A DNA stretch of 63,778 nucleotides, filler included, from Dugesia japonica (taxonomy: Eukaryota): assembly GCA_001938525.1 (NCBI GenBank). It is 5 parts of 5 records of this genome, joined end to end, with 100 filler letters (N's around TTAATTAATTAA, not from the genome) between each part and the next. Parts side by side here need not be neighbours in the genome. Positions count along the whole stretch, not along the records: positions 1 to 17,723 come from MQRL01425888.1; 4 more parts are not named here. The stretch is one strand, 5' to 3'. The notes under the pieces were generated by a model, which made no database searches, was not told where the DNA came from, and saw only the letters and a list, made by a program, of their open reading frames with translations. Numbering within the stretch: position 1 is the stretch's first letter; each line of letters begins with the position of its first letter. Positions 7,898-49,644 of this stretch are shown piece after piece. Made by a program: the position numbers and the translations under genes.

Positions 7898-9234
7898 CTA
7901 TCGATTCGATTTCTTGCAGAATCAAAGAGAAATAAACAGGGAGGACAATCAGCAAGAAAAAGACGAATACGAATATTTTAAACAAATTGTATATTCAGAG
8001 AGAAAATGTGCTTTAAAAGTAGAAATTATTTGGTATTTGTATATTAAAATCATTTGTATTAAACGTATTATAGTGTAGAATTATTATTAATATATGTTCT
8101 TATCTTTTTATGCCCTGCTTGCTTTTTCTAGAATGATTAGAAATGATTCAACCACCACTGAAAAATCAAATGAATGAATTGATAAAGTGAATATAATGAA
8201 ATATGATTCTGAAGTTCGAGTAAAATGAATTTTTAAGAGAAATGGTGGATAATCTCGTAGAATTAAGAAGTAAGATGTGCGCATTATAAATGATAATTAT
8301 TTGAAAATTTTAAATGAATTTTAGTCTAATGGTATTTTGATAAATATTATTAAAGCAGTGTTTAATTTTGCAACAGTAAATAGTTTGGCTAAAAAAATTT
8401 TGTAAAAGATTTTTGTAAACAACTTGTAGTAAATATTTAAGTAAATACTTGAGTAAAGATTGATTAAATTTGTAGTAACCTAATTTCAGTAACGAATGTG
8501 CGTAATCATTTTAATTAAAAGATTTAAGTAAAGAATTGAACGAACAATTGCAAATTATTGATTTCATTGTTTTATTTATTGTTTTGTTATTTTGATTATT
8601 ATTGAGCTGAGCTAACCTTAATAAGGATATTGTTGAATTAACATAGAGATTGATAAAGAAATTGATAATTTTACACTAAGAAATTTAATATCTTGACTTA
8701 AAATGAGCATAACAGTATTAAAAAACATGCAGAAATTGAACACGCACAACCTTGCATTGAATAATGATGAAATGGCTGAAAGATTATGAATTCATAAACA
8801 TATTCAGAATTATCTCACTTGTTTCGAAAGTAAGATCAAAATATTACCGGGTAAGTGAGGATAAATGAAGGTTGTCGCAAAGCATCGTACAAATGAAATG
8901 TTAAAGAGAAGTGTAAAATCGTGTTTTCAGGTTGGGAAAAGATGGACTGATAAAGACTGTTCCGGATCGGGTAAAATTATATAAAATACAATGAACATAT
9001 AAATTATGAAAGATACGTGCAAGATCAAGTTATCAATCATGTCGGGGTTGAAAATTCAAAGCTCAGGCACGATGTGTAATGGGATTGAGACACGGTGAAC
9101 AACAACATGATTATAAAAATTATAAAAATGAATAAAGAAACGACGGAATGAATCACAGTACATAAGCATTCACTATGAACAATCGGAAAGATGAATCTTT
9201 GAGGGCTCTGGAATCAACTATCATGCAATCAGCA

Positions 9235-9765
9235 ACCATTACCATAACCATTACTATAACCATTACCATAACCATTACCATAAGCAATACCATAACAATT
9301 ACCATAACCATTACTATAACCATTACCATAACCATTACCATAAGCAATACCATAACAATTACCATAACCATTACCATAACTATTACCATAACCATAACCA
9401 TAACCATTACCATAACCATTACCATAAACATTACCATAACCGTTACCATAACCATTACCATAACCATAACCATAACCATTACCATAACCATTACCATAAC
9501 CATTACTATAACCGTTACCATAACCATTACCATAACCATTACCATAACCATTACCATAACCATAACCATAACCATTACCATAACCATAACCATAACCATA
9601 ACCATTACCATAACCATTACCATAACCATTACCATAACCATTACCATAACCGTTACCATAACCATTACCATAACCAAAACCCTAACCATAACCATTACCA
9701 TAACCATTACCATAACCATTACTATAATCATTAACATAACCATTACCATAACCATTACTTTCCCA
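9235..9765. repeat. (ACCATA/ACCATT)n hexamer microsatellite, about 530 bp
   Basis: Directly visible; it explains the poly-TI and poly-MV ORFs. Confidence 0.97.
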
Positions 9766-10425: not shown

Positions 10426-10428
10426 TGT

Positions 10429-11729
10429 TTGTATTCAAAAATGGATTTGAATTATAATTATAAATTTCCTCATGTACAAAATAAAGTAGGCCTACTGAAA
10501 ATTTCACCAACCTCTGGTTCAATGATTAATTTAAATAAATCAGGAGAAGTAACATTTCAATCTTTAAAAAACACAAACCTATTGGACATTCGAAATGCAA
10601 AATTGTATTACAAGATTGAAATTGAACCAAAAGATGCTGTACTCAAGAATGATTGGTTTCCCAGTTTGTTTAGTTCAATGAGATTAAAACTTGGATCATC
10701 AACTATAGAAAGTATTGAAAACCCTGGAGTGGCATCTAAAATGTTGAATTTAATTATGATGGATGAATCTTATTTAAAATCTCCACGTGCATATGGAGGT
10801 GTACCTGATGTTAAAAATGGAACAGTTGACGATCCTAGTTTTGAAGCAAGAAAGTAATTGTTTTCATCTGGTTATTTCCCCTTGTGTAATTTCTTTGGTT
10901 TTTTACAAAATTATAATAGATTATTATTTAATGTTTTTATACAATTGGATCTTAATAGAAATGTACAAGATGAATTGATATTTTTTAATAAAAAGGGTAA
11001 AATTGAAATAAAGACTTTGGAATTACACATTCCAGAATGGACTTTGAATCCTAGAACAGAATTAAACTATGTGGAAAGATTAGCAACCAATAAAGGAATC
11101 CAAGTTTCATTTTTGGAGCGAGATGTAAATAAAAATTTAATTTCCAATAGAACAAACTTTTCAATTAAAATGGAAAATTTATCCTAATGACCAAACTTTG
11201 TAATTGTAGGATTTAAATCAACCAATTCTAGTTTTGATGTTAATAATAATTTGTTTTTTTTGAGTAGTTTAATAACAAAAAAGATTACAGTCAAGCAGAT
11301 GTAACAAAAAAGATTGATAAACAGTAGATAAACAAAGTTATAATAGAATAGAATAATAGTATAGTTTGTATATTATTTTAAATGTATACAATTAGAATTG
11401 AATAAAACATATTACCCAAATACTAGAATTGAATTTGATTACAAGAATACAATATTTCCATATCATAATTATGTGGATCTATGTGTAGCATTTAATTGTT
11501 GACCGCAATTGTCTATAAAACAATGGACTAGTTTGTATCCAATATTTTGTTTTGATACTTCTGCACAAGATGATAAAATGACAATAAACAATGTAGATAC
11601 ATAACAAAGGATAAAGAATTAACTGGAGACTTGTATTGGTTAATGTTACAAGAGAAATATGTTGAGTTTAAAATATCAAATGGTAAAGTCATGTTTGTAG
11701 AAAACATCAGAGGGGATGATGTAAAATGA
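10429..11729 (+). pseudogene. Double jelly-roll major capsid protein
   Basis: ORFs 10429-10857 and 10858-11187 are in frame across one stop; motifs LFSSMRLKLGSSTIESIENPG, PLCNFFGF, IKTLELHIP, PNFVIVGF, LELNKTYYP, LYPIFCFDTSAQ fit Polinton/adintovirus DJR capsids. Confidence 0.85.
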
Positions 11730-11789: not shown

Positions 11790-13226
11790 ATGGCTACTTT
11801 CAAATGTTAAAAATTTTAACTCTTCAAGAGTGTAAGTAACAAGTCTCGTCACTTGAATATTTGTAAAGGCGTAGGAGCGACCGTAGGGAGAAATTCTTTT
11901 GGAAATATAAATGACAATGTTATTGGAAATTCTATTGGACATTCTATTGGAAATGTAAATGAAAATATTATTAGAAATGTTATTGGAAATTTAACCAACC
12001 AGAGAGCTCACTCCGTTAGCTCTGGTGGTGACCTTTAATCTTCTAAAACAACTTCATTATTATTAAAACCATTTACTAGTGAAAAGTATCCAGGAGAGCG
12101 ACATTTGTTTAAACATAATTATACTGGACCAGGAACTAGATTAGATATAAGATTAGATGAAAATAACAAACCAAAACCAGAACAAAAACCAATTAATAGA
12201 GTAGATGAAGCAGCTTTAAAACATGATATTGCTTACATTTCAACAGACATTAGAGATAGACATTTGGCAGATGTAAATTTGATTCATGATTTGAACAATA
12301 TGGAAAATCCTACTATTTCTGAAAAGATTCAAAAAGCTCTTGTTAAAGCAGCAGTGAAGGGTAAAATTTTAATTGGAAATTCTATTGGAAATAAAAATGT
12401 AACCAAACAGACTCATCGCTTCAATCGGAGTATATTATCATATATTATATATTATAAATATAGAAAACCAAAATATTTTCTAAAAGTAATAATAATTAGC
12501 AAGGATGAAACTTGTGGCTGTGATGTAATTAATATGGTTAAAATATCAACTGAGGGTTATAGATATATTTTAGTTTGTATAGACTTGTATACAAGATTTG
12601 GTTTTTGTAAACCAATGAAAAATAAAAATCAAAGATCTTTAAAAGAAGCTTATGAAAATATATTTGAAGAAAATAATAGAATTCCAAATAATATTTGGTC
12701 TGATAAAAAGTCTGCTATTAGATCAAAATACTTAAATAAATTCTTCAAGGAAAATAATATTAATTTGTATCATACTGAAAAAGGTAAATCAGTTTTTGCT
12801 GAAAGACTTATTAGGACTCTAAAAAATAAAATGTGGAAATTTTTTACTTTCGTTGGTAATCAAAATTGGGATAATAATTTGTTAGATAAAATTGTAAATG
12901 AATATAATAATACAATTCATTCTAGTATTAATGTGACTCAAAAAGAAGCATCTGAAAATCCAAATGTAATAAAAGAAATTATTAATAAACATAATAATGA
13001 AAATGATGTTAGTTTTAAACAGAAATTTAAAATTGGAGACAGAATTAGAATTTTCAAATACAAGTACAAATTTGAAAAAGAATTTACAGCCAAATGGACA
13101 AACGAATTATTTGTTGTAACAAAAGTATACAAAACAAAACCATTTACATATGGAATTAGTGATTTGGATAATGAAAAGATTCTAGATAGATTTTATGATA
13201 ATGAGCTTCAGAAAACAGTTTTGTAA
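11790..13226 (+). pseudogene. Zn-finger-like / parvovirus-type PLA2 / rve integrase fusion; 12105-13226 still open
   Basis: HNYTGPGT...PINRVDEAALKHDIAY (Ca-binding loop YxGPG, catalytic HD) followed in frame by CDVINM, LVCIDLYTRF, IWSD, AERLIRTLK, YNNTIHSSI, FKIGDRIRI...FYDNELQ. ATG 11790 and ORF 11853-12038 share the frame, with 3 stops. Confidence 0.9.
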
Positions 13227-13303
13227 AAGCGACCGAAGGAAGCGGTAGAAGCAGTAGTTTTTCCCTTCATTTTAGAATTTTTATTTTATATTAATATTAA
13301 ACA

Positions 13304-13687
13304 ATGTTAAATTATTACTACAATAAAATGTCAAATATTACAGAACAAGGTTTAATAGATTTGATTAATAGTAACAAATGTAAATCTGTTACTATTAATG
13401 GAAAAAAATATTGGATTAGAAAACGAGTCAAAGAAGAATTAAAAAAACATCAAGGTAAATTTTTGCCGCTTTTGGGTTTAATTTCTGAAATAGTTGCTGG
13501 AATAAGTGCAGCTGCCACTGCTGGTGTAGCCGGAGCAGCTGCCAGGATTGCATCTGCAGTCGCAAATTCACGAGAAGCAATTAAAAAGAGTAAAGAAATT
13601 ACTGAAATTGAAAAAAGAACAGAATTTTTGGATAAAGAATGGAACAAAAAAGGTCGAGATCATGTTCTAAAAGAATATGCAGTCTGA
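13304..13687 (+). CDS. Small Polinton/adintovirus virion protein with a GG|FLP-like amphipathic Ala/Gly segment
   Basis: Basic N-terminus, then HQGKFLPLLGLI...AGISAAATAGVAGAAARIASAV, resembling the recurrent GGFLP...GGAAGIA proteins of these elements. Confidence 0.65.
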   Translation: MLNYYYNKMSNITEQGLIDLINSNKCKSVTINGKKYWIRKRVKEELKKHQGKFLPLLGLISEIVAGISAAATAGVAGAAARIASAVANSREAIKKSKEITEIEKRTEFLDKEWNKKGRDHVLKEYAV

Positions 13688-13696
13688 GATGTAAAA

Positions 13697-16223
13697 ATGA
13701 AAAAATTTAATAATGAACAACATCAAAAGGAAAATGCACAACGATTACTTTTAATTCAACAATTGTACAAGGAATATGTAAATGATTATGAAATTAAAAC
13801 ATGTCGTGAAACAATGGTTGAATTAAAACGAAATCCTGAAGTAAAATAGAATTATCATAAAGTAGAATCTGAATCCTTGAACGAATTTCGACAAAGAATT
13901 AATTTTAATGAAATTGAAAAATATAGATTAAAAATTATGAATATAATCAAAATATTCTTTGATAATTATCAGAAAACAGTTTTTTATTTGAGTTTTTCAA
14001 CGAAATTTGAAAAAGATTATGGTGAAAATACAAATCGAACATGGTTTCGTGATTTTACAATTTCTGCTGGAAAGATTACAATTGAGTCTGACATTTCAAT
14101 TGTAGTTGATGTTATTCTAGATCAATTGAATCAAGAATTTTCGAAGTAAAAGGAGAAGGATCAGGTTGGTCATTTGATTTTTTGAATCATTTACAATTTA
14201 TTTATCAAAAAATAAATCATTGACTGAACAAAGTTTTTCTCCTTTACCTCGTGAATCGTCTTCAACAGTTGGTTTATTAAACATTAAAAATCCAGACAAC
14301 AAATGTTTTGATTATTGTATTCAAGCTCATTTGAATCCTTTATTGAGTGATTCGATTTATAATTATATTGACAATTTCTTTAATTTGGAATTTCCAGTTA
14401 AAATTTCAGACATTAAAAAGTTTGAACGTGAAAACAATTTCTTGGTCAATGTATTTGAAATTGTACCAGATCAACAAGAGCAAAAGAAAATTGTTAAACT
14501 ATACAATTCTCATTTTGATTCTAGGTCTGTCTTCAGTTAGAAAATGTAATTTATTATTTTTCAATAATCATTATATTCTCATTCGTGATTTGCATAAAAT
14601 ATAAAAGAGAAAATGACAAATTACATTCCAAATATTTATCACTTTTTTAATATTCTAAAGCAAAAAAAATGTCAGAAATAGCATATGAAATATTTAAAAA
14701 TGAATATTCCAAATTTAAGCATCTATTGGAATATACATTATACTATATGAAACTAGATGTACTAATTCTTACAGATTTCTTTGAAAATTTCAAACAAATA
14801 TCAATATACAGAAATGGAATCGATCTATTATATTGTTATTCTACACCAGGGTTAACATGGAAAATTGGCATGAAAGTTTCAAATTTAGAATTGAATTCTC
14901 CAAAAGAATAGAATTATGATTTATATCTAACCATTGAACAAGGAATACGTGGAGGTTATTCTGGTGTATGTGGTAATAGACATGTAGTGGCTGATGACGA
15001 GCACACTATAAAATGTCTAGATCAAAATACTTTATATTCTGCATGCATGACTGAAAGATTACCATTTGGTAAAATGAAATGGGCAAATGATTTGATCTAT
15101 CAACCGACAAGTAATGAATTTTTAATCCTAAATAATAAATAATTTTAAACAGATTATATTTATACAGTAGATTTAATTTATCCAAAAACAATAAATGACA
15201 AGACAAAATATTATCCACTAGCAGTAGACAAACAAATTGTCGATTACAATCAATCATCAGATTATCAAAAGAAATTATTGGGCACCAAGAAACAAAGTAA
15301 ATGTCCAAAATTAATTACGAATCAATTGGATAAAAAATATTATGTATGTCTGAACCAGGTTTTGGATTTCTATCTTGAACAAGGAATGCAATTGACAAAT
15401 GTACACAAGAAAAGTATAATAAAAACAAATCACTGGCTTAAAGATTATATTGAATCAAACATTACCAATAGAAATCTTGCCAAGAGAAATCACGATGCAT
15501 TTGGTGACAGTTTCTTTAAATTATTAAATAATGCATTTTATGGCAAGAGTCTAGAAAATGTTCGTAATCGTGAAAACTTACACTTGGCTACATCTGAAAG
15601 AATGATTAAAAATGCTGCATCAAAACCATCATTTAAATCTTCAATTATAATTAATGACCAAGTTGCTTTATTAAAAAATTTCAATTCATCAATCATGTAT
15701 AATAAATTTCCATATATTGGCTTCTTTGTTTTGGAATATGACAAATTGATAATGTACAAGTTTGTATATCATTACATGGAAAGTTTGATACCAGGACAAT
15801 ACAAAATCCATTTTTCAGGTACATATTCTCTAATAATGAAATTTATTCATCCTAACCAATCATGGGATGAATTTAAAATGAAAATATAACATTTATTTGG
15901 GAATAATCTTTTCCATATGAAGGATGAATTTCCAAATAAAGTAATTACTGAGGAATTTTTCATCAAGCAAAATCTTATTGCTAGTAAAGGAAAACACCAA
16001 ACACAAGGGAGTAAGTAAAACAAATCTCTTGACTAGTTTACATTATAAAAATGTCTTGTATAATAATGAAACTATCCAAGGAAAAAATTATTCAATAAAT
16101 TCCAAATTAAATGTTGTAAAAGAAACCCAACAAGTGAAAAAGGCACTAACCCCATTTGATGATAAAAGATACATTTTGAATGATTGTATTACAACTCTAC
16201 CATATGGATTTCATAAAAAATGA
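13697..16223 (+). pseudogene. Protein-primed family B DNA polymerase, frameshifted and internally deleted
   Basis: GEGSGW, LNIKNPDNKCF, YMKLDV (ExoIII), STPGLTW, GIRGG, LDQNTLY, FFKLLNNAFYGKSLEN, degenerate FSGTYSL for YxDTDS, KHKGV, PFDDKRYI...TLPYG; ExoI/II region missing near 14610. Confidence 0.93.
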
Positions 16224-16530: not shown

Positions 16531-16955
16531 AATAAACATTCCTCGTTTAAATTTTTATTCACCATTTAAATTTTCATATTAAATATCGTTCCCCGATTTA
16601 ATTTTAATATTAAATATCATTCCTCGATTAAATTTTTATTGCCGCTTGATTTTGCCAATTAGAATTTTAAATAACCAACACGACTAAAAATAAAAAAACT
16701 GTTGAAATTTAAAATCAAAATCAAAATTCCAAATCAAAATCAAAATTACAAATTAAATTAAAATACCAAATAGAAAATACGAGCAGAGATATATAATCGG
16801 GAATAAGCACCTTTGTCCTTTTCATCCTCAACTGTTGGCCATGAAAGCGGAAAGTCACCGTTGGCCGCTTCTACCCCAAATGAAAAATCACTGTTTGAGT
16901 GGGCAATAGTTAAGTGGGGGGGTGGGGTGCCTATTCCCGACTTTATATTTCTACT

Positions 16956-17239
16956 TACAGGATCATACTTTATAAGTCGTAATGCAGGAAACAATTCTAG
17001 TGTAAACCAGCAATTTGTTGTTTTTGCTAATTTATACAAATTGATTACAATTGTTAATGATTGCAAACAAAAATCTTTAATATAATATTGTAATTTTTCC
17101 ATTTCCAACGGTTTTTACATCCCATTATTCGACAATTTCCTGATTTTAAGAATATTATTGTATACTTACCGATAGGAAACTTCATTTTGCTTGTTACATC
17201 TTGTGTCACTTTACCTTTGTAATTAATATTAACTAACAT
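16956..17239 (-). pseudogene. TATA-binding-protein-like gene, frameshifted and truncated by element A
   Basis: MLVNINYKG...YTIIFLKSGNCRIMGCK (compare TBP IFxSGKxxxxGxK), then after a frameshift QSLTIVINLYKLAK...FTLELFPALRL (compare YEPELFPGL). Confidence 0.7.
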
Positions 17240-17357
17240 TACTAATGATTTTTATTAAATGTTCGTGTATATATGTATTTTTCAAAAATAAAATTGATTG
17301 ATTCATTTAAACAAAGTCAAACAGTATAATAAACAATCCATTAAATTAAATCTGTAA

Positions 17358-17665
17358 AATATTGAGTTAAGAAATGATGCTGTTTATCAAATTAAGGGTT
17401 TAAGCGGTAGTGGAAAAATCTTATTTGTATGCAAGTTACTAAAATCTAATTTATTTAAATTAAAGTTTAACAAATATATTGGCACAGAGGTGCAGATGAA
17501 GAGCATGGGTTGACACAATCAAAATTTTCCAAATTTAAAAGGAAAATTATAAATGAATTTGATAAAAATTGGAGCAAGAAATTGAAACCAGGTTATGTTA
17601 TCGTAGTAGATGATCTGTATCAGGAGACAAACAAAGAAAAGGACTTTAATAATTTTGTGAGGTAG
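17358..17665 (+). pseudogene. FtsK/HerA-type (A32-like) packaging ATPase fragment
   Basis: Walker A KGLSGSGK, one frameshift, then Walker B YVIVVDDL; not in the ORF track. Confidence 0.85.
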
Positions 17666-23475: not shown

Positions 23476-25810
23476 GATGTAGTGTTTCTTTCCATCCAAA
23501 AAAGCTTATTGTCTAAGCACGACAGTGCACATTTCTTGCTTTCGATCGTATACAGCCGGTGATTTATTGATCGAAAGCTAGTTTGCTTAACTTTAATTAT
23601 TTACCTAACTTGTTTTTCTTCATTTTCTTCTTCTTCTGCACATATTCCATGATATATATTTAAATAATTTACATTTTGGATATTAGTTTGTTTTAAAATA
23701 ATACCTTTGACTTTCATCGTTATGATTGAATCTTTTATCTTCTTCAAACTGTAACACTTTGGTCGCAAAAAACTCATTCATCATAATCTTCTCCTTGACT
23801 TTCATCTTTGAACAACCTGATTTTATTGGCCACTTCAGTAGTATAAAGTGGATGAACTTTAGGATAATTATTGGTAATCAGTAAACCGTCCGATTTCATT
23901 TCACTCAACAATTTGTTTTATCCACTCCAGTACATGGTAAGAAAAAGCTGTCCGTATTACTTGCAATGATATTGATTTTGCAGTCAAATTGATTTCTATA
24001 TTTTTCTTACTCTTCATACTGTAACTGGTACATGAGCAACTTGCTAAGATTTAACACCACCTAACCAATATAACTAGGCCTATCCAGACAAAAACAATCC
24101 TTCTCCAGCAAGACAGNCTTTTATCCCTCTGCAATATCCATAGTATCTTTGAATGTTACTTTGCTCGTATATGTAACAAATTTATTTTCATTATTACAGA
24201 ATCAGATATTCATTCACTTCGTTAAATTCTCAACCGTCTTGGCGTACAGAGCATTATTCAGCAACTTATAGAAATCCTTCTCAAATTTTGTCTTGGAAGC
24301 CGCTTTTCTCGCTGAATTTGAGTTCAAGTAATTCATAAAAATCTCCGCATGTTTAAATTTAATAATCCTATGTACTGCTGCCACATGAGCTCCAAGCTTT
24401 ATGTATAGTTCCAACAATCGCCAATAAGTAATGTAATGACTTTTTGGCTCATGTGTTAGCAGTAGCTTTTTCACCTTTGATCCTGGTGGGCATTTATGCT
24501 CTGGAGCTAAAAGTAATTGATCTAACCTATCATGATGTTCAATAGGCATCTCCAGATCAATTTTCAACAGGTATCCAACTTCATTATTGTTGTTGCTACT
24601 ACATAATATTATTTGGTACTTCTCTTCAATCTGCTCTTCCAATATGAATTCAAAATCTCTGTATGGTAAAGGCTGTGTTAATTCCCATTCATATAGATTA
24701 TTAACATCATTGTAAAGCAATGAAGTATTCTCATCTGCTAGCACGTAATGTCTATTTACGAATGTCATAGCACTTCAAATTCTTGTTTAAAATAACCGAT
24801 ACATTTCCGGATCTTGTAGTAATTCCAATGGTCTATCCAAGGTTTTAAGAGCACTTGACCAACTCAATCCAGGTAGCGATACGAATCAAAGTGACTCTAA
24901 CCTATGTTCTTCAAGTGCCTTTTTTCTGAATGTTTGGAATACATAAGCCAATAGGTAAATAACCAGTTTCATATAATATCAAATCTATTACAAAAGATTC
25001 TCGCTCTTAGATTCCGTCCATGCCGACATTGCTATTTGATATTCTTCACTGGTTATTTTTTGCCATTTTGCTGGTAGGAAGTTTTGATTAACAAGCGTCT
25101 TATAAGATGTCGCAAATTTGAATGGAAATATTCCTTTACTCTGATGTTCTTGCTGTGGAAATTCACTTGATTTAATTGGCTAGCCTTCGAGATTTGCAGT
25201 TAATGCTGATAATGAACTGCTCAGAAATCAAAAGGAATCAATAAACCGAATTGTGACTTTATTACCCATACATGCAAACATTGCCAGGAATCTTTATGTG
25301 GTTTGTGATATTGACCAGAGCTCCCAATGCTGGAATAGATTTAGGTCATACTTGATTGTATGATGAGAATCATAAACTTTAAAGTTATGAAACACAACAG
25401 GTAATTCCATCCTGATCTTCTTGGACAAGTTGCATTGATTGTCTGCAGCTCCAATACATTTTCCCGAGAAATAATCGTGATCTCGAACCAGCTTTTTGTT
25501 TTTAATTCCATACAAGTAGCAATGTGCGCTTTTCAATCGTTGTTATTTTCATGTCTGCACACATGTTTTTCTTGTACCAAGGTGCAACCACATTTTTTGA
25601 TAATGCATCAATACAATGGAGAAACTGAAACATACAATTTTCTCCAGAAAATGAATGATATTCACATTTTCTTGTTTCGTCCAGCAATGAAATTAATAAA
25701 AGTCCCACAGCTAATGGTACATGCTTTACTCGACCATCATCTTTCTGAATCAAAAGAGCTTCTATATATGCGTATACTATTGAACAATATACCAATATTA
25801 TTATCACAAT
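23476..25810 (-). pseudogene. Protein-primed family B DNA polymerase of element B
   Basis: VRDHDYFSGK...CNL, VVFHNFKVYDSH, IRFIDSF, KGIFP, SLPGLSW, YNDVNNLY, FYKLLNNALYAKTVEN, NTDSF, KVKGI, LSCLDNK; many stops and frameshifts. Confidence 0.92.
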
Positions 25811-27283
25811 TATTATTTAATTATAATTTATTATTATTATTTATTCTCTTGGAAAATATTTAATGTGAAAATTATAAATAAACTATTCACAACATTATAT
25901 TTCATAAAAAAATAATCAATTCAAATTTATTATCAATTTATCGTTATTTATTATTCTTTTCAAAATAAAAAATCAAAAGTACTAATTTCAGAATAAATAT
26001 TAAATTAACATTTTCCAAACATCCAACTAATTATCAGTGGGTTATTTTAATAATATTAAATAAAAAAATTATTTTCACGAGGTTCAAAAAAGGTTATAAT
26101 TACTTTCATAAAGTCATTACAATAATATATTAGAATTTTTTAAACAATAATTCTAATAAACAATAATTTAATTTAAAAAAAACATATATTAAAAAAAAAT
26201 ATATTAATTAATAAATTATTACTTTATCATTTAATTAATCATTATTCTCTTTAAAAATATTGTATATATTAATAAAAAAAATGTTTTCGTTTAAAATAAT
26301 AATTTCAATTTATTATTAAAAATAATAATTACTTTATCATTGCATCAAAATCATCATCAATTGAATCCATGTATGTAAAAAAAAATCATTTTAAAAAATA
26401 ATAAATTAAATTAAAAAAATGACTTTCAGCATTTTCATTTTTAATTCCTGTAGATAATATCACTGTTGTATCCATAAATAATTTTTTGTTTAATTGAGAA
26501 TATTTCAAATTCATAGTCTGTAAATAATTTTGTTAAAATATAATAAGTTTAATTTAAAAAGCTTTTCCGAGTCTTTACTTAAAAACCTTGGCGATGATGC
26601 TGCTGCATCAAAAGATTCAGATTTATTTGAATTCATGTCTGAAAAAAAGTAATTTAAAAACAATAAAATAAATTTTATAAAATACCTTTTTCACATTCAT
26701 TTAAAAATCCTAATGATAATTCTTCCTCATTCATTGAATTAATTTTGTAATAATAATAAATAAGAAAAATATTAAATTTTAAAAAAAATTACTTGTTTTT
26801 AGTATTAGCGGATTTCACTAATAAATAATGAAATTAATTATGAAATTTTTTTAAATATCGATAGAGTTCAAAGTTGGACTTTATCAACAATATACCAATT
26901 TATCATAATAATAAATAATTGTGATGTAATAATTTAAACTTACCTTTAAACTTCATTGTAAAAATTTTATAATACAATATAGTGATGTAATAATTTTTAT
27001 AATGAAAATTTTAACTTACCTATGATCTATTGATATATATCAATATATTATTACGTTTATATTAACTTATCGATAATATATTGCTTTATGTTTATATTGA
27101 AACTATTATTTTATATAAAATAATGTNNNNNNNNNNNNNNNNNNNNNNNNNNNNNNNNNNNNNNNNNNNNNNNNNNNNNNNNNNNNNNNNNNNNNNNNNN
27201 NNNNNNNNNNNNNNNNNNNNNNNNNNNNNNNNNNNNNNNNNNNNNNNNNNNNNNNNNNNNNNNNNNNNNNNNNNNNNNNNNNN

Positions 27284-27350
<67 letters not shown>
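27284..27350. repeat. (ATT)n microsatellite
   Basis: Directly visible next to an N-run. Confidence 0.95.
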
Positions 27351-27353
27351 GTC

Positions 27354-27388
27354 AATTCCTGACGAAGTCAAGGTCGAAATATCGAATT
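27354..27388 (+). ncRNA. Minimal type I hammerhead ribozyme (Penelope-type)
   Basis: AATTC CTGACGA AGTCAAGGTC GAA ATAT C GAATT: stem I AATTC/GAATT, CUGANGA and GAAA cores, palindromic minimal helix III; stem II imperfect. Confidence 0.7.
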
Positions 27389-27479
27389 ATTATCCAATAT
27401 CAATAAAAAAACCAAATTTTTATTATAGCTTTTATTTTAAAATAGACGAGGAAAAGGTTAAACAATCAACTAGCATATA

Positions 27480-27775
27480 TATTGTTCCTAAGGTTAATAG
27501 GCTATGCAAATGTATTTGATGGAACTGATTCCATGTGCAAACATAAATAATGATTATTGATATATTTTGATATGTGTTGATTTATTTAGTCCATACGCAC
27601 GTGGAGTTTCAGTAAAACGGAAATCTGATAAAGATATTTTGTTGGCTTTGACGGCAATGATTAAAGATGTTCACCCGAAAGCTATTCAAACCGATTTGGG
27701 TAAAGAGCTTTATAATACCCCGGTCAAATCATTACTGAAACAAAATTGCATACTGCACTATCCAGTATTTTCTCA
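27480..27775 (+). pseudogene. Polinton integrase core fragment
   Basis: YILICVDLFSPYA...KRKS...PKAIQTDLGKELYN...ILHY; breaks off before the catalytic E. Confidence 0.8.
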
Positions 27776-27779
27776 TATG

Positions 27780-28058
27780 TGTCTTACATATGTGCAATCA
27801 ATTATTCGTTATATGGGTCTGTTAAATGTAGATCGAAACAATGGTATTACAATGAAGGAATTTAAAGACTCATTTACGTTTTTCACCTCTGTATCGGCTC
27901 AGGACCTTGCAGTTGATCAACCAAAATTGCCTAAAACCGGCAATCTCAATTTGGATGTGCGATTCTAGAAAGCCTTGACAGAATCAGTAACAACGTATGC
28001 ATATGGAATATTTGATTTGGAAATTCAAATCACCAAGAATAGAGTAGTAATTGGATAA
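27780..28058 (+). pseudogene. Polinton major capsid protein, C-terminal fragment
   Basis: NNGITMKEFKDSFTFF...DL...KTGNLNLDVRF*KALTESVTTYAYGIFDLEIQITKNRVV fits the classic Polinton MCP C-terminus. Confidence 0.8.
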
Positions 28059-28172
28059 ACAATGCATACATACATACTTGTGTGTATGTGTATTGCAGAA
28101 CATGAAGTATGGATTGTTTTTCTACAAAGAATAATTTTATTGATTGATAGTAATTTCTAGATTAAAACAATA

Positions 28173-28494
28173 TTGAAACATAAATTTGGTAGTAGGCGAT
28201 TCAAAAGAGTATATCCACTGGAACAATTACCGGACTTTCTTCGAAATGGATCCTTTGTGATCAATACACACACATCAAATTTAGATGGTGTACATGGGAT
28301 TGCTATTCACGTCAAACCAAATATTAATCGTGTATTTGATCCAGTGGATATGTTTTATTCACCAATGCTGGTAACAAATTGGAGCGTATACAGCAGCGTG
28401 TCGAGTATAATCAAGTCTTTTACCAAATTCTATTGATATTTTTATGTGGACAATATTGTATTAAATGGCTCAAAAGCCAGTATAGACAATCTTA
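28173..28494 (+). pseudogene. Adenain-like cysteine maturation protease
   Basis: FVINTHTSNLDGVHGIA (HW mutated to HG), FDP, then after a frameshift YQ...CGQYCI. Confidence 0.82.
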
Positions 28495-28519
28495 ACGTGA
28501 TTATTAATAAATATTTAAA

Positions 28520-28966
28520 ATGTCAGTGTTTTTAATTGATTATGAAGTCTTTCAGTATAATAATGGTGACTATCTAATTAAANAATTGCGTAAAATGGAT
28601 GTTGGTAATATTCTTCAACCGTTTTATTACATGTTTGCCATGACGGAATCAATGGTTAGTTTACCAAAGTCTGCTCAAACAACCAATGAGTACTTACGAC
28701 TCTGGCGTCGTCATCTCAGATGGATTGATCTAGATTGTAAATTTGATCCAATTCAAATTCTGAATGACTTGCAAGCAATTCTTGATAATGCATTGTTTTA
28801 TGTGAATGGAAAGAAAATTAATACTCTCAAACACTTTTTTCCGAGTCTTCTAACTGTTAATTATAACTCAAAGGGGCAATCTCAAATAAGTATATCGGAT
28901 AATAATGTCTGTCCATATTATAATCAAGGAGATTACGGTGCTTACAAGAAATGTTTAAAACTGTAA
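28520..28966 (+). CDS. Polinton accessory protein with a DnaQ/DEDD-like fold
   Basis: FLIDYEVF...YLIKxL...TNEYL...HLRW...FYVNGKK and a C-terminal CP...C, resembling a recurrent Polinton gene (D.E/Q.F...KE...H...W). Confidence 0.55.
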   Translation: MSVFLIDYEVFQYNNGDYLIKXLRKMDVGNILQPFYYMFAMTESMVSLPKSAQTTNEYLRLWRRHLRWIDLDCKFDPIQILNDLQAILDNALFYVNGKKINTLKHFFPSLLTVNYNSKGQSQISISDNNVCPYYNQGDYGAYKKCLKL

Positions 28967-39200: not shown

Positions 39201-42200
39201 AATTAAACGAAAGATCAGATTTAAAGAATGAATATGAGGAAAGGTTAACTGGAGTTGCAGAAAGAGAACTGAAACGATGTCAAATTGAGAATAGTAAATT
39301 TTTATTTTGTTGAAAATTTTTAGTGCATGATAATGATTTTAGTACAGTCTAAGGCTGGTTATGTAGAAGAAGCTCTCGCAGGTCTTACAGCTAAAGAGGA
39401 TTTTTCAAAAATTAAACTCAAGAGAACTGACAGCAATAAATTATTTGAACAATTTATTAGTCCGTATAAAGATGTGATGCTTATTTCTGTAAAAGGTTTG
39501 CACTAATTTTTTGTCTTGAACATTTATTAATACCGTAAACAACATCTCAATGATAACTTTCCTTTACAAATAGAGGGTTTTCACACAAAATACAACTTTT
39601 ATATACAAAGTTTTATTAGACAACAAAACATAAAAACCTGACTAATTGGGTGTAGTTGTTGTCAGCAGATTGGAACGCAACCGACCATCCACAAACTTAA
39701 TTTTTTCTATTTTCTCATCTATTCCAAATATTTCTCATCTTTCCTGCATAGCTTATAATTTTTTTCCATATTTTTTGAGAGTCCTTTATCGCTGAAAATC
39801 TATAATCATATGAAATTTGATTTACTTATATTTTTCTGTCCATTCATAGCCAAACATAATTCATGCAATTTACAATATTCGAATAGTCAAAATAAAAAAT
39901 CTTCATAATAATAAAAATTATGTATAAATAATAATATAAATAAATACACAAAAATGAAAATCTTACTAACTAAAACTAACTCTATTTTCTATAAAACTAA
40001 AAATTATTATATAAAGTATTATATAAAAAGACAATATATTATTTAATAAATAAAGACGTGTACTGATATTTTGATTTATTAATTATTCTTATTTTATAAC
40101 TAAAAACTTTTTAAAAAGTTTAAAAGATATTGAAGTGATGATGCAATTTTAAAAGCAGAGTCAAATCATATTTGAAATTCGTATTTAAAAGAAATAGTAC
40201 TGTTCACAGACATCTGTGGCATATTCATAGCATTATTAAACTAAAATTAAAATTATTTAATATTTTTTACGAATAATAAATGTACTATCTTTCTCTTGTT
40301 TGTCTTGATCCTGAATGATATATTGTTAATTTTCTAAAATTTTAAAAATGCTCTTAAATCCTATTGATAGTAATAATTTCCTATTTTCCAAATATCAAGA
40401 CTTCAAACTTCCAATGATAAAGATATGCAGAGAGCCTTGCATGTTGGATCGAATGATTTATATATTTTTCCCACAATTTAATAAGTTTCTTTATTCTTAT
40501 CGTCCGCGCTTTCATAGCTTAAATTTTAATCGAATATATAAAACTGTCCAGATTAATTTCGCCACATCTATATTTTTACCTGATCTGGTAGACGGACAAA
40601 TAGTCCACGGAGAAAAATATTAAATTGCACGAACTTTTTGTCTTAGTTTTGTCCTACATCCACCTGATCTTTGAAATATTTAAGTTTTCCATAACATTTA
40701 TACGAAATGATTTTTATACGTCAAAACCTTTATACGAAATTGCAATATTTATACGAAAACACTTTTATATAAAATAAATTTTAAACGAAAATACCGAGGA
40801 TCGTTTTTATATATCTTAATGTCATTTCGAATATAATAAATGTGTCCTTTATAAAAATGGAAATTTTTTAAATAATTTTTCAATGTATTTAGAATTTTAA
40901 TTTCTAGTCTGGGACATGTTTAATTATAATATGCATACCAAAATATGGTAACAATTAATAAATATCCTAATAAAGACCTATGATTATATAATCTATATAC
41001 ATATCCAAATAAATTAAAATGTATGATTTGGAAACAAAACTTCTCGTTTTGATTTTTGATAAATTTGAAAGTTGAAATAAAGGAGATATATATATGTGTG
41101 TGTGTGTGAATTGTATTTGTTTTATTGAATAAAAAATTTTCAATGAAATAAATGTATGCTTTATGTGTGTGTTGATAAAAGTCCAAAAGTCTATTTGTGA
41201 ATATATTAACAATAGATTAAATATATTATGTGACTAAATAATGAAAGATTAATTTTATCTTATCATTTGTTATTATTTTTCTCAAAAATAGTATTGTAAA
41301 ATATTTCAAATTTTTGGAATATTTTTCGTTTTGATGAATTATTGTTAATATCTGTTAATAGAGCTTTAAATATTTTCAGCATTAACTTGTTAAAGTATCC
41401 TCAATTCAGCTATATAGTACGCTAATCCTAGAAGCTTATAATTAATAGCAGACCTTGTTCCTTTTTTTTGTGATACCTTAGATAATACATATACACTGCC
41501 CAGCAATGGGGATTTCTTCGGTTTACTTAATTAATTATAGGTATGTTTATCGCGGCGTGTTTACTACGTGTAGTTTCTTTACGAATTCTTGGTTTAATTG
41601 TTCTATACACTAATAGTAGCTTCGATTTAAAATCGATTGATTCTTCAGCTACTAGTAGAAGTGTCAATCGGTTTTTAACACTATAACCAGTCTGTGTTTT
41701 TTCTTTCTCTTCTATAAATTTTCGCAGTTGAAATCATTTCTAGAACAACCTAAACTTGTCAGGTTACAAATTCTATTATCTGCGTAGTCTTCCTTAGGCT
41801 TTTTCAATTCATTTAAAGATAATTTTCTGATTTTGCATTGACATTTTATAATTTCATGTTTCTTTTCTAATGTAAATCACTTGAGGTTTATGTTACTCCC
41901 ATACAGTCTTCTACGTTTTGTTTCTTCACTCATTAAACTTCTAAAAATAATAAAAATTTATTTATTATAAATTAATTACGTAATAATTACAAATGTAAGA
42001 ATAAAAACCGAGTTAGATCGAAACTCACGTTATTCAACATCGCACAACGCAAATTATTCTGTATATATTTTATGTTATATTTGATAAAAAATTTAATAAA
42101 TTTTGTAATTAATTTCTTCCATCATCTAGGAAGGAAAAGTATTCAAGTTCGTCTTGTTGAGCCCATTTCTTCTTCGATTAACATTGGTGACTGTTATTTA

Positions 42201-44166
42201 TTACTTACAAAACAGCTTGCATTCGTTTGGATAGGCGAATGTGCTAATGTTATTGAGATCAATAAAGTTAATGAATTAGGTTCTTGGATTACAAAATGTA
42301 AGGAATTGAATTACAGCGGTAGTTCAGACAAACCTATTGTGGTCAAATCAGATGAAAATGCTACGAATAATTGTGCAATTCAATTCTGGAAATGTCTTCA
42401 TTATGATGCCATACAAATGATCAATCGTAAGGAAGTTTTATTACACTTTCTAGCAAAATTTACATGATTTAGTTTTGTATCATTGTGTCCTATCATTAGA
42501 TTATTTATAGAAATGGTTACTTTATAGATAATTTAACTTTCTGATTTTGCGATTAATTTTTCTATCCATAATATTAGTTTAATTCGTAATTTAATTATTT
42601 AAATTAAAAACTGATAAAAATAAAATACAAATATAAATGATATTAAATTTCATATTACCTCGGAATTAGTTTATTCAATTTTAAATTATTTGTAATTAAA
42701 ATTTTTTGGATGAATTAATTTTCTTTACTAATTATATAACTAGGTAACTTATGAGAGGTAAAGAATGCGCGTAGAAAAAACATTTGCAGAATTTTTTTTA
42801 AATTAAATTTTATTTATGCATCATTATATTTTTACAAAAAGTAAAGATTTTCAAAATTTGTAAATTTTTTATGCTTATTTTTAAAATTATCTGCTCTCAT
42901 AAATTTTGTTCTTTTTTAATATAACTTTCATTGTAAGTTTTAAAATGTTCAATAAAATAAATATAAATCTGTATCATTAGTTTTGAGGTTTAAAATTTTG
43001 AGCATCACGAACAAACAAATAAACAAACATACACCACTGGGATTTTAATATATTAATTGGAGTTGCTTTTTTAAATTTAGTTACGATGTTATCATTGCTT
43101 TTATAAATCTTTTGAAAATTCTACAATTACATGAGTTATTGCAAGAATAATTGTTGGACTTAACCATTGATCGCATTTGAGATTTCATTGAAATAATAAC
43201 TTCGATCAAATTAAATTGTTGTTTTATAGATATTCGAATTTTCAACTATTGTATTTATGAATATGCTAATATTGTCTTCATAATATTCTTGAAGAAGACA
43301 ATAGTCGAAAATTCGAATATCTATAAAATAACAATTTAATTTCATCGAACCTATTATTTCAATGAAAATTTTAAAATTCTCCTTTATCTCCGAATATAAT
43401 TCATATTTTCTGAATTATTACGACACCGCTTATTAGTCGTAAAATATTAAATATTTTTTAATTTTCAATAAGAGTAAAGAATTCTTAGAAAAGAGTTCTG
43501 GTGGAAATTCGGAAAACTAAAAATTAAAGAAAATTGAATTTGCTCTTTATTTTTGTTCAAAATAGATTCTTTAATTGTTTAAATTTTTCAAAAATCTGAT
43601 ATAATAATTTGGTATTATTGATTAATACTATTAACGTAAATGTAGCTCCTGGAGATGTATTGGAAGATGAATTATACGAAAGAATGATACAACGAACTAA
43701 TATGATTTATAAAGTTGTTGGAAATCAGTTAGTACCCTTTGATGAATACTGGGGTTCACCTCTTAAACATAAAATGTTAACTGACGATCAAGTTTTTATC
43801 TTTGATTTTGGAACAGAATTGTATTTATGGACTGGATCCAAAGCTGATATGAAAACGAAAGCTAATGGACGAAATTTGCTCAAGATGCTATTTTCTATAG
43901 GTTATAATTACGAATCTTGTTCCATCAATCCTTTAGATCCATTACCAAGTAAGAAATTTTCTTATTTTTATATAAGATTTATTGTGATAATAGACAATCA
44001 AAAAGAAGCAAAGCCAACTAAAGGATCTGCTCGACCTAATTGGGTGATCGTTGGAAGACTGCCACAGAAAGGAGAAACAACATTATTTAAAGAAAAATTT
44101 TCCGATTGGCCAGAAACGTCAAGATTAATTAAAAGTTCTTTGCAGTCTAAAGCTAACAATGAAAAA
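33280..44166 (+). CDS. SVIL: Supervillin-like (villin/gelsolin family) gene, 3'-partial
   Basis: Phase-compatible GT-AG exons 38943-39082, 39130-39293, 39343-39495, 42130-42426, 43646-43948, 43994-44166 give SRNPIKKLNERSDLKNEY, ALAGLTAKEDF, PYKDVMLISVKGRKSIQVRLVEP, VFIFDFGTELYLWTG, RPNWVIVGR...ETTLFKEKFSDW. Exons 33280-33319, 33367-33468, 33521-33621 are phase-compatible, but their linkage is inferred. Confidence 0.88.
34560..34800 (-). pseudogene. Restriction-like endonuclease domain of an R2/NeSL-type non-LTR retrotransposon
   Basis: FLDTKTPYD...NISKYPSL...LAIGCFGSW...ND fits the D.K.P..KY..L..vGalGsw pattern. Confidence 0.65.
35298..36772 (+). mobile_element. Internally deleted MULE transposon with tandem-repeat TIRs
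   Basis: TTTCACATAAAAACT array (35310-35430) inverted to the AGTTTTTATGTGAAA array (36540-36760); flanking direct repeat (C)ATAAATTT at 35289-35297 and 36772-36780; ORF 35662-36072 MALPFIP...WNCY...RTNNAEGWHSRF. Confidence 0.88.
43283..43320 (+). ncRNA. Minimal hammerhead (U3 variant) inside an inverted Penelope pLTR pair
   Basis: ATATTC TTGAAGA A GAC AATA GTC GAA AATT C GAATAT: perfect 6-bp stem I and 3-bp stem II; inverted arms at about 43182-43251 and 43298-43367. Confidence 0.65.
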
Positions 44167-44390
44167 GTAAAACACTTTTTATTTTAATTAATTCTTTTTA
44201 AATTCTTTAAAAATATTTTTTATAAAATTAAATTATTTGAATAAAAGTAAAAGAAATATTTTAATGAAAAAATAACATTAAAAGATTTTAAGAATCAGAT
44301 ATATCGTATAAATTCTAATGAATTTCATTAATTTGAATATTTTATCTTGATAATTCGGGACACACCACTTATTAGAATTGATACATTAAT

Positions 44391-46562: not shown

Positions 46563-46858
46563 TTTGGGGTCATTATGTAACTCATTATGTAATACACACT
46601 TATGTAATATCTGCTTATTTGAAAAAATTTGGATAAGTAAAGATACCAAAAAACATTTTAAAACGTTTTTTGGAAAGTTCTTTGTTTCTTAATTAAGATA
46701 CATTTTTCGGTATCAAAATGTCTTAGACAATATACGTGATTATATACCCAATAAATAATTGTCTATAACTGATGACGATTAGAGCTTTACAATGCATGGT
46801 ATTGTCAAAGAAAAAATCATGAAAAAAAGTTCTACTATTAATTTATCAAGAGACTTAC

Positions 46859-49644
46859 CAAACAAATAATCAATTTTATTAACATCAATTTGTCGAAATT
46901 CATTAGCATTTGTAACAAGAGCACCTTTTGTATTAAATTTTGATTTCCATTCTAAAAGTAAATTTCTGTTATCTTCTCTGCTACCATTTGCAGAAACAGG
47001 AAGAAAATAACTTGAGCCGCCGCCCAAAATAACTTGAAATTTTTCAGCCTGTTTGAATAATTGCAAAGCAATATCATCCACATTACAATTTTTTGGAACT
47101 CTAAGGATTTAAAATTAATAAAAAGTTAATTTTATTGTAATATTAAAAAGTTTCGAATTTATTAAAATGAAAATCTAGCAAAAATCGCTTTCCGTAAAAT
47201 TATAATATTAATAAAAATATTTGTAGATCGGAATTGACAACAATAATTTTTCAGTTTTTATCTCATTTTATTATTCCTGATAATGCACGTTAGTAAAGTC
47301 AAAATTTTCAATCAACAATAGTAAAGGAAACAATTAATAAAAAATCAAATTTTATAATGATAATAAATATTTAAATAATAAATAAATTTATAAAAACATT
47401 ATATAACAAACTTTTACAGAAAAATCCTTACAAAATTCTCTTAAATAAANTTACAGATTTAAATTTCTATTTCTGTTTTGATAGTGAAATCTTTTACAAC
47501 GGGATTACCAACAATTAATATTGTGGTCGAAAAATCATTTCTCGAGATTTCTGGGTAATTCCCAAAAAAATTTTTCTTCTATCACGAGATTATAATGAAA
47601 ATATTGAAATTCTCGTTTCTCGAGAAATCGTTTATTAAGTCATATGTGAACATCAGAGGATGAGAGAATAATTTATTTGAATTTCTTTACCATGAAGTTG
47701 AAAACGTTTTAATTGCTAAAGGTGTATTGCAATTTCTATTCAATGGCCTTGAAAGAAAAAAATATCACCAGAGAATTCGTAGCCAAAATCATAACGTAAA
47801 TTTTCAAGCGAAGAAACGAACTTGTAATATCATTGATAAAATTTTTACAAGACCCTAATTCTATTAGTATACAATATTATAGAGCAACCTATTTTTGTTG
47901 TGCTATCCCCGTTTTGTTATATTTGATTTGTTCTATTCATTGAATGTAATAGGTTTAATAGACTTATGTGGTTAAAGTTGTATTTGGCTCTTTGTATTCA
48001 TCTGATGTTTTTTTCATTCAATTCATCAAATGTGATCGGTCTTAGGAATTTATTGAGTTTATTATATGTATTTAGTTGTACTTTATGTTTGTCTATCTCT
48101 TGGAATAGGTTTAATTAAATGTATTGTGCTGTACTTGTTTCATTTTGTCCGTCAAATGTAACAGGTTTAATAGATTTAATGGATTCTTTAGGTGTATTGG
48201 GTATAATGCAATCATTTGGTTAATTTAATTTACTCAATTTACATAGCGATACATTGAGACATTTATGGTGATTTACATAAATTTCACTAAGAAAAATATT
48301 TTAAGTTCTTTCATTTACATATAAATTATTAAAATGGATTAAATACATTACATTAAAATATATAAGGATTTTATTAAATTANNNNNNNNNNNNNNNNNNN
48401 NNNNNNNNNNNNNNNNNNNNNNNNNTTTTTTTATTTATTTTTTGAGATTGAATCGATATTTCGACTTTTTCTTCGTCAGGAATTGACTTTTCACACTAAC
48501 TACATTAAATTTTACGAAAACGCCGTCAATATTATAGTAATTTTCATTAAAATATGTATTAATTTCATTAGAAGAAAAAATTCATACAATTATTCAAGAG
48601 TTCTTAACATAGCATGCATTATTATTATAGACATTTTTTTTATTTAACTATAATATATAGAGGAATAGTAGCGCACAGTATCAACTCCCCTCATGCAATA
48701 ACTTAATCACTCTGTTTTAGAGGGAACCATTAAAATTACAGCATATTAAGTAATCGGATTAAGTAGTAGTGGATTTTTTATACAGTTTAAGTTTTTGAAA
48801 TTATTATTGGAATTCGGGTAAGTAAAACTAAACTTTTAAAATATGAAAACAAATTCAAAAATTCTTTTCATTAAAATTTAATATTCAAGCATATATTATT
48901 TTTGACAAGCTAGTATTGTATGTTTCATTTTAAGAGGGAAAAGGTTAGCAGAAAAAGTAATGAAAACGGTGTTAAAATCATCACATTTTTCGGGTGAACT
49001 TATCTCATGCTCTTTCAGGTTGGGAGCTCTGTGGCTAGCGTAGGGTATCTTTTAGGTCACATGTCTTTCTTTACACTTGGTATGGTTAGGGTGCTCTTCA
49101 GAATGCAAGGATTCTTTCATTACTTTCAATATTTATCAAACATATAATACAATATGCAAGACATTTTGAACTGACCTAATATTATTAAACAGTAATATTA
49201 AAAACATGATTATTCAAAAAACATCCCTTTAATAAATATGTGAATAAATTTTTATAATTATATTTTTCATAAATTGTAATAATTTTTATTTAATAAACTC
49301 ATTTCTTTCACAAATATTTACATTAAATTAAATTACAAATATTCTTGAATAAATTAACAGTAATATCTTAAATTAAATTAAAAAACATGACAACATACTT
49401 TTTTATATTTATTTAATATTATAAATTTACTTATATTCCCAATTTCTTGATGGAGTATTAGCATATAGGGATCCAGGTGTTGCGTGTGTTATTCTTGTAG
49501 TTGTGACAATTCCAACAGATTTATTGAGATTTGCAAACATGGTGCCTATGGTTAATAAATCGTCTGTTATAGGATTGTATGTGGAGCAGTTTTCGAAATA
49601 AACATTTGGTCCAACTCCAACTACATTAGACCGAATTTTCACAC
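46859..49644 (-). CDS. Alkaline phosphatase, two internal exons (49431-49644 and 46859-47100)
   Basis: Phase-compatible splice gives GVK...KSVGIVTTTRITHATPGSLYANTPSRNWE...DIALQL...VILGGG...GSREDNRNLLLEW...DYLFG. Confidence 0.92.
48451..48484 (-). ncRNA. Minimal hammerhead, same family as 27354
   Basis: Reverse complement AATTCCTGACGAAGAAAAAGTCGAAATATCGATT; stems partly decayed. Confidence 0.5.

What the first reader, a model, noticed from the sequence alone, without database searches (positions are those of the whole stretch)
11790..13226. Parvovirus-type phospholipase A2 fused in frame to the integrase, with a relic N-terminal Zn finger
Seen: one open frame joins a PLA2 domain (YTGPG, HD) to a DDE integrase. 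The same frame extends upstream through GGDL* to MATFKC*KF*LFKSVSNKSRHLNICK, a decayed C2HC-like finger. Established: parvoviral VP1u PLA2 mediates endosomal escape, and some adintoviruses encode a PLA2. Inference: an entry enzyme and integrase delivered as one virion polyprotein, possibly cut by the adenain protease at a GG site.
Basis: partly seen in the sequence, partly recalled or inferred. Interest (0 to 1): 0.72.

Follow-up and report, generated by a model that had tools for sequence, protein, structure and literature searches.

The report
Phospholipase-integrase fusion of Polinton viruses
A dead Polinton (virus-like transposon) in an animal genome joins a membrane-breaking phospholipase to its integrase in one gene, and many relatives do the same either in frame or through a predicted retrovirus-style ribosomal frameshift, which likely lets the integrase ride inside the virus particle.

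Summary
Confirmed. ORF 12039-13226 carries a parvovirus-type PLA2 and an rve integrase with all catalytic residues, inside a decayed Polinton. This copy is dead: three stops lie upstream and the first usable ATG lies behind the PLA2 active site. The fusion is not a deletion artefact: 64 of 112 homologs carry both Pfam domains, and the window sits in an all-fused clade. The finger matches relatives' C2H2 finger by position and spacing only. New result: in two other integrase clades the same two domains overlap in the -1 frame. Four loci have a Met-less integrase ORF, an in-phase A_AAA_AAC and a stem 5-7 nt downstream, and 114 of 118 PLA2-only relatives carry the matching x-K-N in their tail. 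Best reading: PLA2 is a virion protein that carries integrase, Gag-Pol style, and the viral protease would free it at GG/GxG sites; packaging, shifting and cleavage are untested. The label 'PLA2-Integrase' already appears in a 2024 supplement. I found no report of the PLA2-to-integrase frameshift in nine literature searches.

The parts
10426..11600 (+). Decayed double-jelly-roll major capsid gene (several stops; ends approximate)
   Evidence: PF21738 E 2.2e-5, below cut-off; tblastn with the long capsid-like ORF of L001, 10879-11256, E 4e-8
11790..11864 (+). Relic N-terminal zinc finger, broken by two stops
   Evidence: Position and spacing as in the C2H2 finger of 15 of 112 relatives; profile score not significant, iE 1.0; no Pfam hit
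11865..12038 (+). Asn/Gly/Ile-rich linker ending in a GG|D motif, then a stop
   Evidence: GG|D in 35 of 56 relatives with an N-terminal extension
12102..12377 (+). Parvovirus-type phospholipase A2 domain, ending in the conserved K-x-x-x-G motif
   Evidence: PF08398 E 8.7e-9; H62 at nt 12222, D63 12225, D78 12270, G113 12375; helical in the model
12378..12518 (+). Linker and integrase N-terminal helix region, eroded in this copy
   Evidence: Alignment; pLDDT under 50 at aa 113-124
12519..13226 (+). DDE integrase core and C-terminal beta domain; no chromodomain
   Evidence: rve E 9.9e-9; D162/D222/E255 at nt 12522, 12702, 12801; best fold match foamy virus integrase, E 4e-15
13301..13687 (+). 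Separate pX-like gene
   Evidence: Own profile of 9 pX regions matches 13445-13624, iE 0.014, weak
13700..16223 (+). Decayed protein-primed B-family DNA polymerase (5' end approximate)
   Evidence: tblastn 14190-16217, best E 3e-47
17298..17665 (+). Probable relic of the packaging ATPase, next to an N gap
   Evidence: P-loop-like motif read; profile iE 1.5, not significant

Best explanation
The ORF is a dead copy of a conserved Polinton gene that joins a parvovirus-type phospholipase A2 to the DDE integrase; the PLA2 likely acts as a virion protein that carries the integrase into the particle, and the viral protease would then cut them apart. Shown: the fusion in this clade, and in other clades an overlap of the same two domains in the -1 frame with a slippery heptamer and a stem. 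Inferred steps: (1) the heptamer and stem cause a -1 ribosomal frameshift, giving much PLA2 and a little PLA2-integrase, as in retroviral Gag-Pol; (2) the PLA2 module is packaged; (3) adenain cuts at GG|D (releasing the N-terminal finger) and at GxG/GG (releasing the integrase); (4) on entry the PLA2 breaches the endosome and the integrase, already present, inserts the genome. The window's clade has the 1:1 in-frame form.
For: Fusion conserved: 64 of 112 homologs carry both Pfam domains (hand count); by own profiles 79 of 112, 31 of 150 and 57 of 120. The window lies in an 8-row all-fused clade, 100/96. Frameshift: of 74 integrase ORFs with a closed 5' end, 7 lack an upstream Met; 4 of these lie in the -1 frame behind a PLA2 end with in-phase A_AAA_AAC. 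Stems start 5-7 nt after it, z -3.9, -2.0, -4.6, -5.7. 114 of 118 PLA2-only relatives have x-K-N in a short tail; shuffled tails give a mean of 53, maximum 72; the reverse NK occurs in 14. 62 of 114 tails can encode the integrase linker in the -1 frame, 0 in the +1 frame. GxG/GG follows the PLA2 in 148 of 164 fused proteins, against 39 of 1768 background windows. Mavirus virions contain integrase and a cleaved hydrolase, and its protease cuts GG|X and GX|G (PMC6048507, passages). Packaging of Polinton lipases was proposed in PMC4642659 (passage).
Against: No particle, activity, frameshift or cleavage data exist here. The GxG motif also ends stand-alone PLA2 and PLA2X proteins, so it is not specific to the fusion. 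Mavirus has GXG sites that were not cut. The shift is seen at DNA level in only 4 loci, one of which (L005) holds only the PLA2 tail, and its stem is weak (9 of 200 shuffles fold as well). The 118 proteins are one related group picked as top hits, not independent events, and their DNA was not seen. A 1:1 fusion shows that a low integrase ratio is not required. Insect elements keep the integrase as a separate gene, so this route is dispensable. This copy has no detectable adenain or penton.
Confidence: 0.6

Rival explanations
1. The fusion stays uncut: PLA2 remains tethered to the integrase and escorts the genome-integrase complex through the endosomal or nuclear membrane.
For: The GxG motif is a general end of the PLA2 module, and not all GXG sites are cut in mavirus. 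Many linkers are very short.
Against: The motif is kept in 148 of 164 fusions, and a second Gly-Gly motif precedes the PLA2. The hinge is predicted flexible.
Confidence: 0.17
2. The link only couples expression: integrase output is tied to a late gene and acts in the same cell, with no packaging.
For: Both 1:1 and predicted low-ratio forms exist among close relatives. No Polinton virion has been observed (bioRxiv 10.64898/2026.06.19.733378, passage).
Against: Adjacent genes with their own ATG would couple expression without a covalent link, yet the four shifted integrase ORFs have no Met before the first catalytic Asp. A related virophage packages integrase.
Confidence: 0.16
3. The -1 overlaps are sequencing errors or decay in A-runs of in-frame genes, and only the hard fusion is real.
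For: The heptamer is an A-run. Single clusters hold both short and read-through proteins (P0571, P0547, P0534). PLA2X-protease overlaps at A-runs fall in mixed frames.
Against: All four loci are -1 with the same heptamer and a stem at the right spacing. 114 of 118 separate 90%-identity clusters end the same way.
Confidence: 0.05
4. The window's fusion is a deletion artefact of a decayed copy.
For: The copy is broken upstream and its linker is eroded.
Against: Dozens of full-length relatives at 33-59% identity have the same architecture.
Confidence: 0.02

Closest known systems
'PLA2-Integrase' proteins of Adinto6405 and Adinto15303 (Buck et al. 2024, PMC11071296, supplementary FASTA)
   Same: Same in-frame PLA2-integrase architecture, already labelled so.
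   Different: A label only: the main text has 0 hits for PLA2 and does not discuss it in the passages seen. No frameshifted PLA2-integrase form among the 59 PLA2 entries in the stored, cut file.
PLA2X of Alpha adintoviruses (Starrett et al. 2021, PMC8502044)
   Same: Same PLA2 family and same terminal K-x-K-x-G-x-G motif.
   Different: There PLA2 is fused to pX and the integrase is a separate gene with a chromodomain. Here PLA2 is fused to the integrase, pX is a separate gene, and the window's integrase has no chromodomain.
Predicted -1 frameshift isoforms of adintovirus Penton and Hexon-Adenain, and PLA2X-Adenain labels (PMC11071296)
   Same: A virion protein extended by a predicted frameshift or fusion into an enzyme.
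   Different: The enzyme there is the protease; the integrase is not named as a frameshift product in the passages seen.
Retroviral Gag-Pol (recalled, no call)
   Same: Slippery X_XXY_YYZ heptamer plus a 3' stem makes a minor structural protein-enzyme fusion that is packaged and cut by the viral protease.
   Different: DNA virus-like element; the carrier would be a lipase; the protease is a clan CE cysteine protease in a separate gene.
Mavirus virophage (Born et al. 2018, PMC6048507)
   Same: Integrase and a cleaved hydrolase in the virion; protease cuts GG|X and GX|G.
   Different: Integrase (MV02) and hydrolase (MV13) are separate gene products.

Membership tests
Polinton/Maverick (adintovirus) | Protein-primed PolB | tested here: met
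   tblastn 14190-16217, E to 3e-47, decayed
Polinton/Maverick (adintovirus) | rve integrase with DDE | tested here: met
Polinton/Maverick (adintovirus) | Double-jelly-roll capsid | tested here: met
   PF21738 E 2.2e-5, below cut-off; tblastn E 4e-8
Polinton/Maverick (adintovirus) | Packaging ATPase | tested here: inconclusive
   P-loop-like relic next to an N gap, iE 1.5
Polinton/Maverick (adintovirus) | Adenain protease and penton in the same element | tested here: inconclusive
   Neither found in this copy, which is decayed and gapped; the penton profile had 2 sequences. Adenain-like ORFs lie beside the fusion in L001, L002, L008, L010
Polinton/Maverick (adintovirus) | Terminal inverted repeats and target-site duplication | tested here: inconclusive
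   None flanking the element among the 25 longest of 210 inverted pairs shown; not pursued
PLA2X gene | PLA2 and pX in one ORF | tested here: not met
   pX-like ORF is separate in the window and in L001, L002, L003, L010
Parvovirus-type PLA2 | GP calcium loop, HD dyad, downstream Asp | tested here: met
   PF08398 above cut-off; residues conserved
Parvovirus-type PLA2 | Phospholipase activity | not testable with these tools
   Needs an assay
Programmed -1 frameshift site (relatives L004, L005, L007, L019) | In-phase slippery heptamer in a -1 overlap, stem a few nt downstream | tested here: met
Programmed -1 frameshift site (relatives L004, L005, L007, L019) | Ribosomes actually shift | not testable with these tools
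   Needs a reporter, ribosome profiling or junction peptides
Programmed -1 frameshift site (window copy) | Overlap and heptamer between PLA2 and integrase | tested here: not met
   In frame; no in-phase heptamer in the linker
Clan CE protease substrate | GG|X or GX|G at domain borders | tested here: met
   148 of 164 after PLA2; GG|D in 35 of 56 before it; cleavage itself untested

The most novel reading that the evidence does not exclude
A large group of animal Polintons has independently arrived at the retroviral Gag-Pol strategy: a virion entry lipase is extended into the integrase by a programmed -1 frameshift, lineages switch repeatedly between frameshifted and hard-fused forms, and the integrase is thereby packaged, so these elements integrate from an incoming particle as true viruses.
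Probability: 0.5. Interest if true: 0.85.

Novelty: new variant of a known kind. Interest (0 to 1): 0.7.

Why it matters
Whether Polintons make infectious particles and how their integrase reaches a new cell are open questions. A covalent link between an entry enzyme and the integrase, kept by two different means, is hard to explain for a purely intracellular transposon. It gives concrete things to look for: a junction peptide, defined cleavage ends and a short RNA cassette that can be assayed alone. It also means that gene callers likely mis-annotate many of these integrases as starting after the first catalytic residue.

Tried and rejected
No whole genome is held, so other copies in the host could not be aligned. 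The run search listed 8 holders of one organism, none on record as RNA: no RNA holder listed. No reads were laid, so expression and other copies remain open. Two scans of viral contigs found nothing. A DNA pattern for PLA2 end plus heptamer gave 90 viral loci, 0 with PLA2 or integrase, that is chance matches. The idea that the integrase was inserted between PLA2 and pX is not supported: pX follows the fusion in the window but lies elsewhere in L001, L002, L003, L010. Three other Met-less integrase ORFs (L054, L058, L067) have no heptamer and no PLA2 end and look decayed. No solved structure matched the PLA2 part by sequence, and the listed Foldseek rows were all integrases or transposases. A TBP-like reading of 16758-17251 got no support. 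The careful 95-row tree did not finish; a 45-row subset was used. Earlier scan notes held nothing on this fusion.

Full report
Observation. That stretch has Phospholip_A2_4 (aa 22-103, E 8.7e-9) and rve (aa 161-250, E 9.9e-9), both above cut-off. The PLA2 loop and HD dyad and the integrase D, D, E are present and conserved in 25-26 of 26 aligned rows. The model (mean pLDDT 83) shows a helical N-terminal domain, a low-confidence hinge at aa 113-124 and an integrase; the best fold match is foamy virus integrase, E 4e-15. The copy itself cannot make the protein: the first Met after the last stop is aa 88, behind the PLA2 active site, and the helix motif that begins the integrase in relatives is eroded.

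Context. The gene lies in a decayed Polinton: capsid relic upstream, then a pX-like ORF, PolB and a probable ATPase relic beside an N gap. No adenain or penton was found in this copy; the window's only adenain belongs to a second element at 23.9-29.0 kb. Gelsolin and alkaline phosphatase exons and 20-32% GC indicate an AT-rich eukaryotic host, likely an invertebrate. No genome was held.

The fusion is conserved. Of 112 homologs, 64 carry both Pfam domains (hand count). With my own profiles the counts are 79 of 112, 31 of 150 and 57 of 120 in three searches, 164 distinct proteins, PLA2 first in 163 (this threshold admits a few partial hits). The atlas holds clusters of 184, 111 and 72 members with this architecture. 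L001, a 10.7-kb viral contig, has PolB, ATPase, PLA2-integrase, penton-like, capsid-like, pX-like and protease-like ORFs (these names rest on my reading of the translations, pX with Pfam E 0.046). In a 45-row integrase tree, a subset I chose from 95 rows, the window lies in an 8-row clade that is fused throughout, support 100/96. The deletion-artefact test is therefore failed.

Finger and Gly motifs. Fifteen of the 112 homologs begin with C-x2-C-x11-H-x5-H. The window relic has the same position and spacing but scores only iE 1.0, so it is probably the same finger, C2H2 in relatives; others carry a C4 ribbon (DUF5679) or nothing. Among P0001-P0064, 56 have an N-terminal extension: 35 end it with GG|D, 16 have G-G/A/S nearby, 5 neither; 3 have no extension and 5 were not scored. 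GxG or GG follows the PLA2 in 148 of 164 fusions, against 39 of 1768 windows in the integrase part. The same motif ends stand-alone PLA2 and PLA2X proteins, so it belongs to the PLA2 module. The mavirus protease cuts GG|X and GX|G, though not every GXG (PMC6048507, passages).

A frameshifted form. Of 81 loci fetched with the fusion as query (the metagenome scan covered 7 of 64 parts), 11 had a PLA2: 6 fused, 2 separate, and 3 overlapping the integrase ORF. In those three and in L005, which holds only the PLA2 end, the integrase is in the -1 frame, has no Met before its first catalytic Asp, and the overlap holds an in-phase A_AAA_AAC. Of 74 integrase ORFs with a closed 5' end, 7 lack such a Met; these four have the heptamer, and the other three have neither heptamer nor PLA2 end. 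For three loci the joint chance of a canonical heptamer in the overlap was 4e-4, treating them as independent. Stems begin 5-7 nt after the heptamer, z -3.9, -2.0, -4.6 and -5.7; L004 and L005 share a long-range stem. A profile of these PLA2s found 2196 short proteins; of the best 120, 118 had the terminal motif, and 114 of these have x-K-N in a tail of median 14 aa, x being Ser in 90 and Pro in 13. Shuffled tails give 53 on average, at most 72. The residue before K-N has an A-ending codon in 114 of 114, and 62 tails can encode the integrase linker in the -1 frame against 0 in +1. These proteins are relatives, not independent events, and their DNA was not seen. The same profile found in-frame fusions of this group, 40 with the same linker motif. 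Shifted and fused forms are mixed in two separate supported clades, while the 7 insect-type separate integrases form one clade. Some single fusions inside the shifted clades may be one-base errors or decay. The tree is unrooted and gives no direction.

Mechanism. A heptamer, a short spacer and a stem are the standard signal of -1 frameshifting, as in retroviral Gag-Pol (recalled). I read the PLA2 as a virion protein (proposed in PMC4642659 and PMC8502044, passages) that carries the integrase into the particle, to be freed by the protease. Mavirus shows that a relative packages integrase and a cleaved hydrolase. Shifting, packaging and cleavage are all inferred. Probability 0.6 for the whole chain, about 0.9 for the frameshift in relatives, 0.97 that the fusion is genuine.

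What is known. PLA2 genes in Polintons are known (passages of PMC3671162, PMC5803895, PMC4642659, PMC11296320, PMC8502044 and bioRxiv 10.64898/2026.06.19.733378). The label PLA2-Integrase stands on two proteins in a supplementary FASTA of PMC11071296, whose main text has no hit for PLA2 and predicts -1 frameshifts for Penton and Hexon-Adenain (passages). None of the 59 PLA2 entries in the stored file is a frameshifted PLA2-integrase. That file and the supplement of PMC8502044 were cut when stored, and bioRxiv supplements are closed, so an unseen mention is possible. Nine searches and passages of PMC10748475 and PMC12567637 gave no report of the PLA2-to-integrase frameshift; subscription journals are not covered. 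No paper was read whole.

Verdict. Real, conserved, a new variant of a known kind. The fusion has been labelled before; the frameshifted twin and the Gag-Pol-like reading appear new and are directly testable. Interest 0.7.

Noticed in passing
window 23923-28966: A second decayed Polinton of another lineage: PolB on the minus strand, integrase at about 27500-27900, adenain at about 28150-28520; no PLA2 detected beside its integrase, with an N gap upstream.
   Followed up: partly
L078, L083, L086-L089, L091, L092 (PLA2 or PLA2X end); L084, L090: In insect-type elements the PLA2X ORF overlaps the adenain ORF at an A-run (6 of 8 in the -1 frame, 2 in +1), and is fused in frame in L084 and L090; stems are weak. 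PLA2X-Adenain labels exist in PMC11071296.
   Followed up: partly
proteins P0425, P0426, P0429; P0420, P0423: Triple fusions ATPase-PLA2-integrase, and ATPase-PLA2.
   Followed up: no
window 16758-17251, minus strand: Two short ORF pieces recall TATA-binding protein repeats (recalled motif); no database support.
   Followed up: partly
window 11900-12030 and the start of the PLA2-integrase linker: A short Ile-Gly-Asn-Ser-type repeat of the upstream linker recurs right after the PLA2, not seen in aligned relatives.
   Followed up: no
window 41976-44187 and 46779-47108: Host exons: gelsolin-repeat gene and alkaline phosphatase; with 20-32% GC and gaps this points to an AT-rich eukaryote, likely an invertebrate animal.
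   Followed up: partly
Lottia gigantea gene models, e.g. P0071, P0087, P0100: Named gene models hold the window-type PLA2 followed by pieces of the integrase, so a mollusc carries this clade.
   Followed up: partly
window 9200-9730: Long 6/12-nt tandem repeat just upstream of the element.
   Followed up: no
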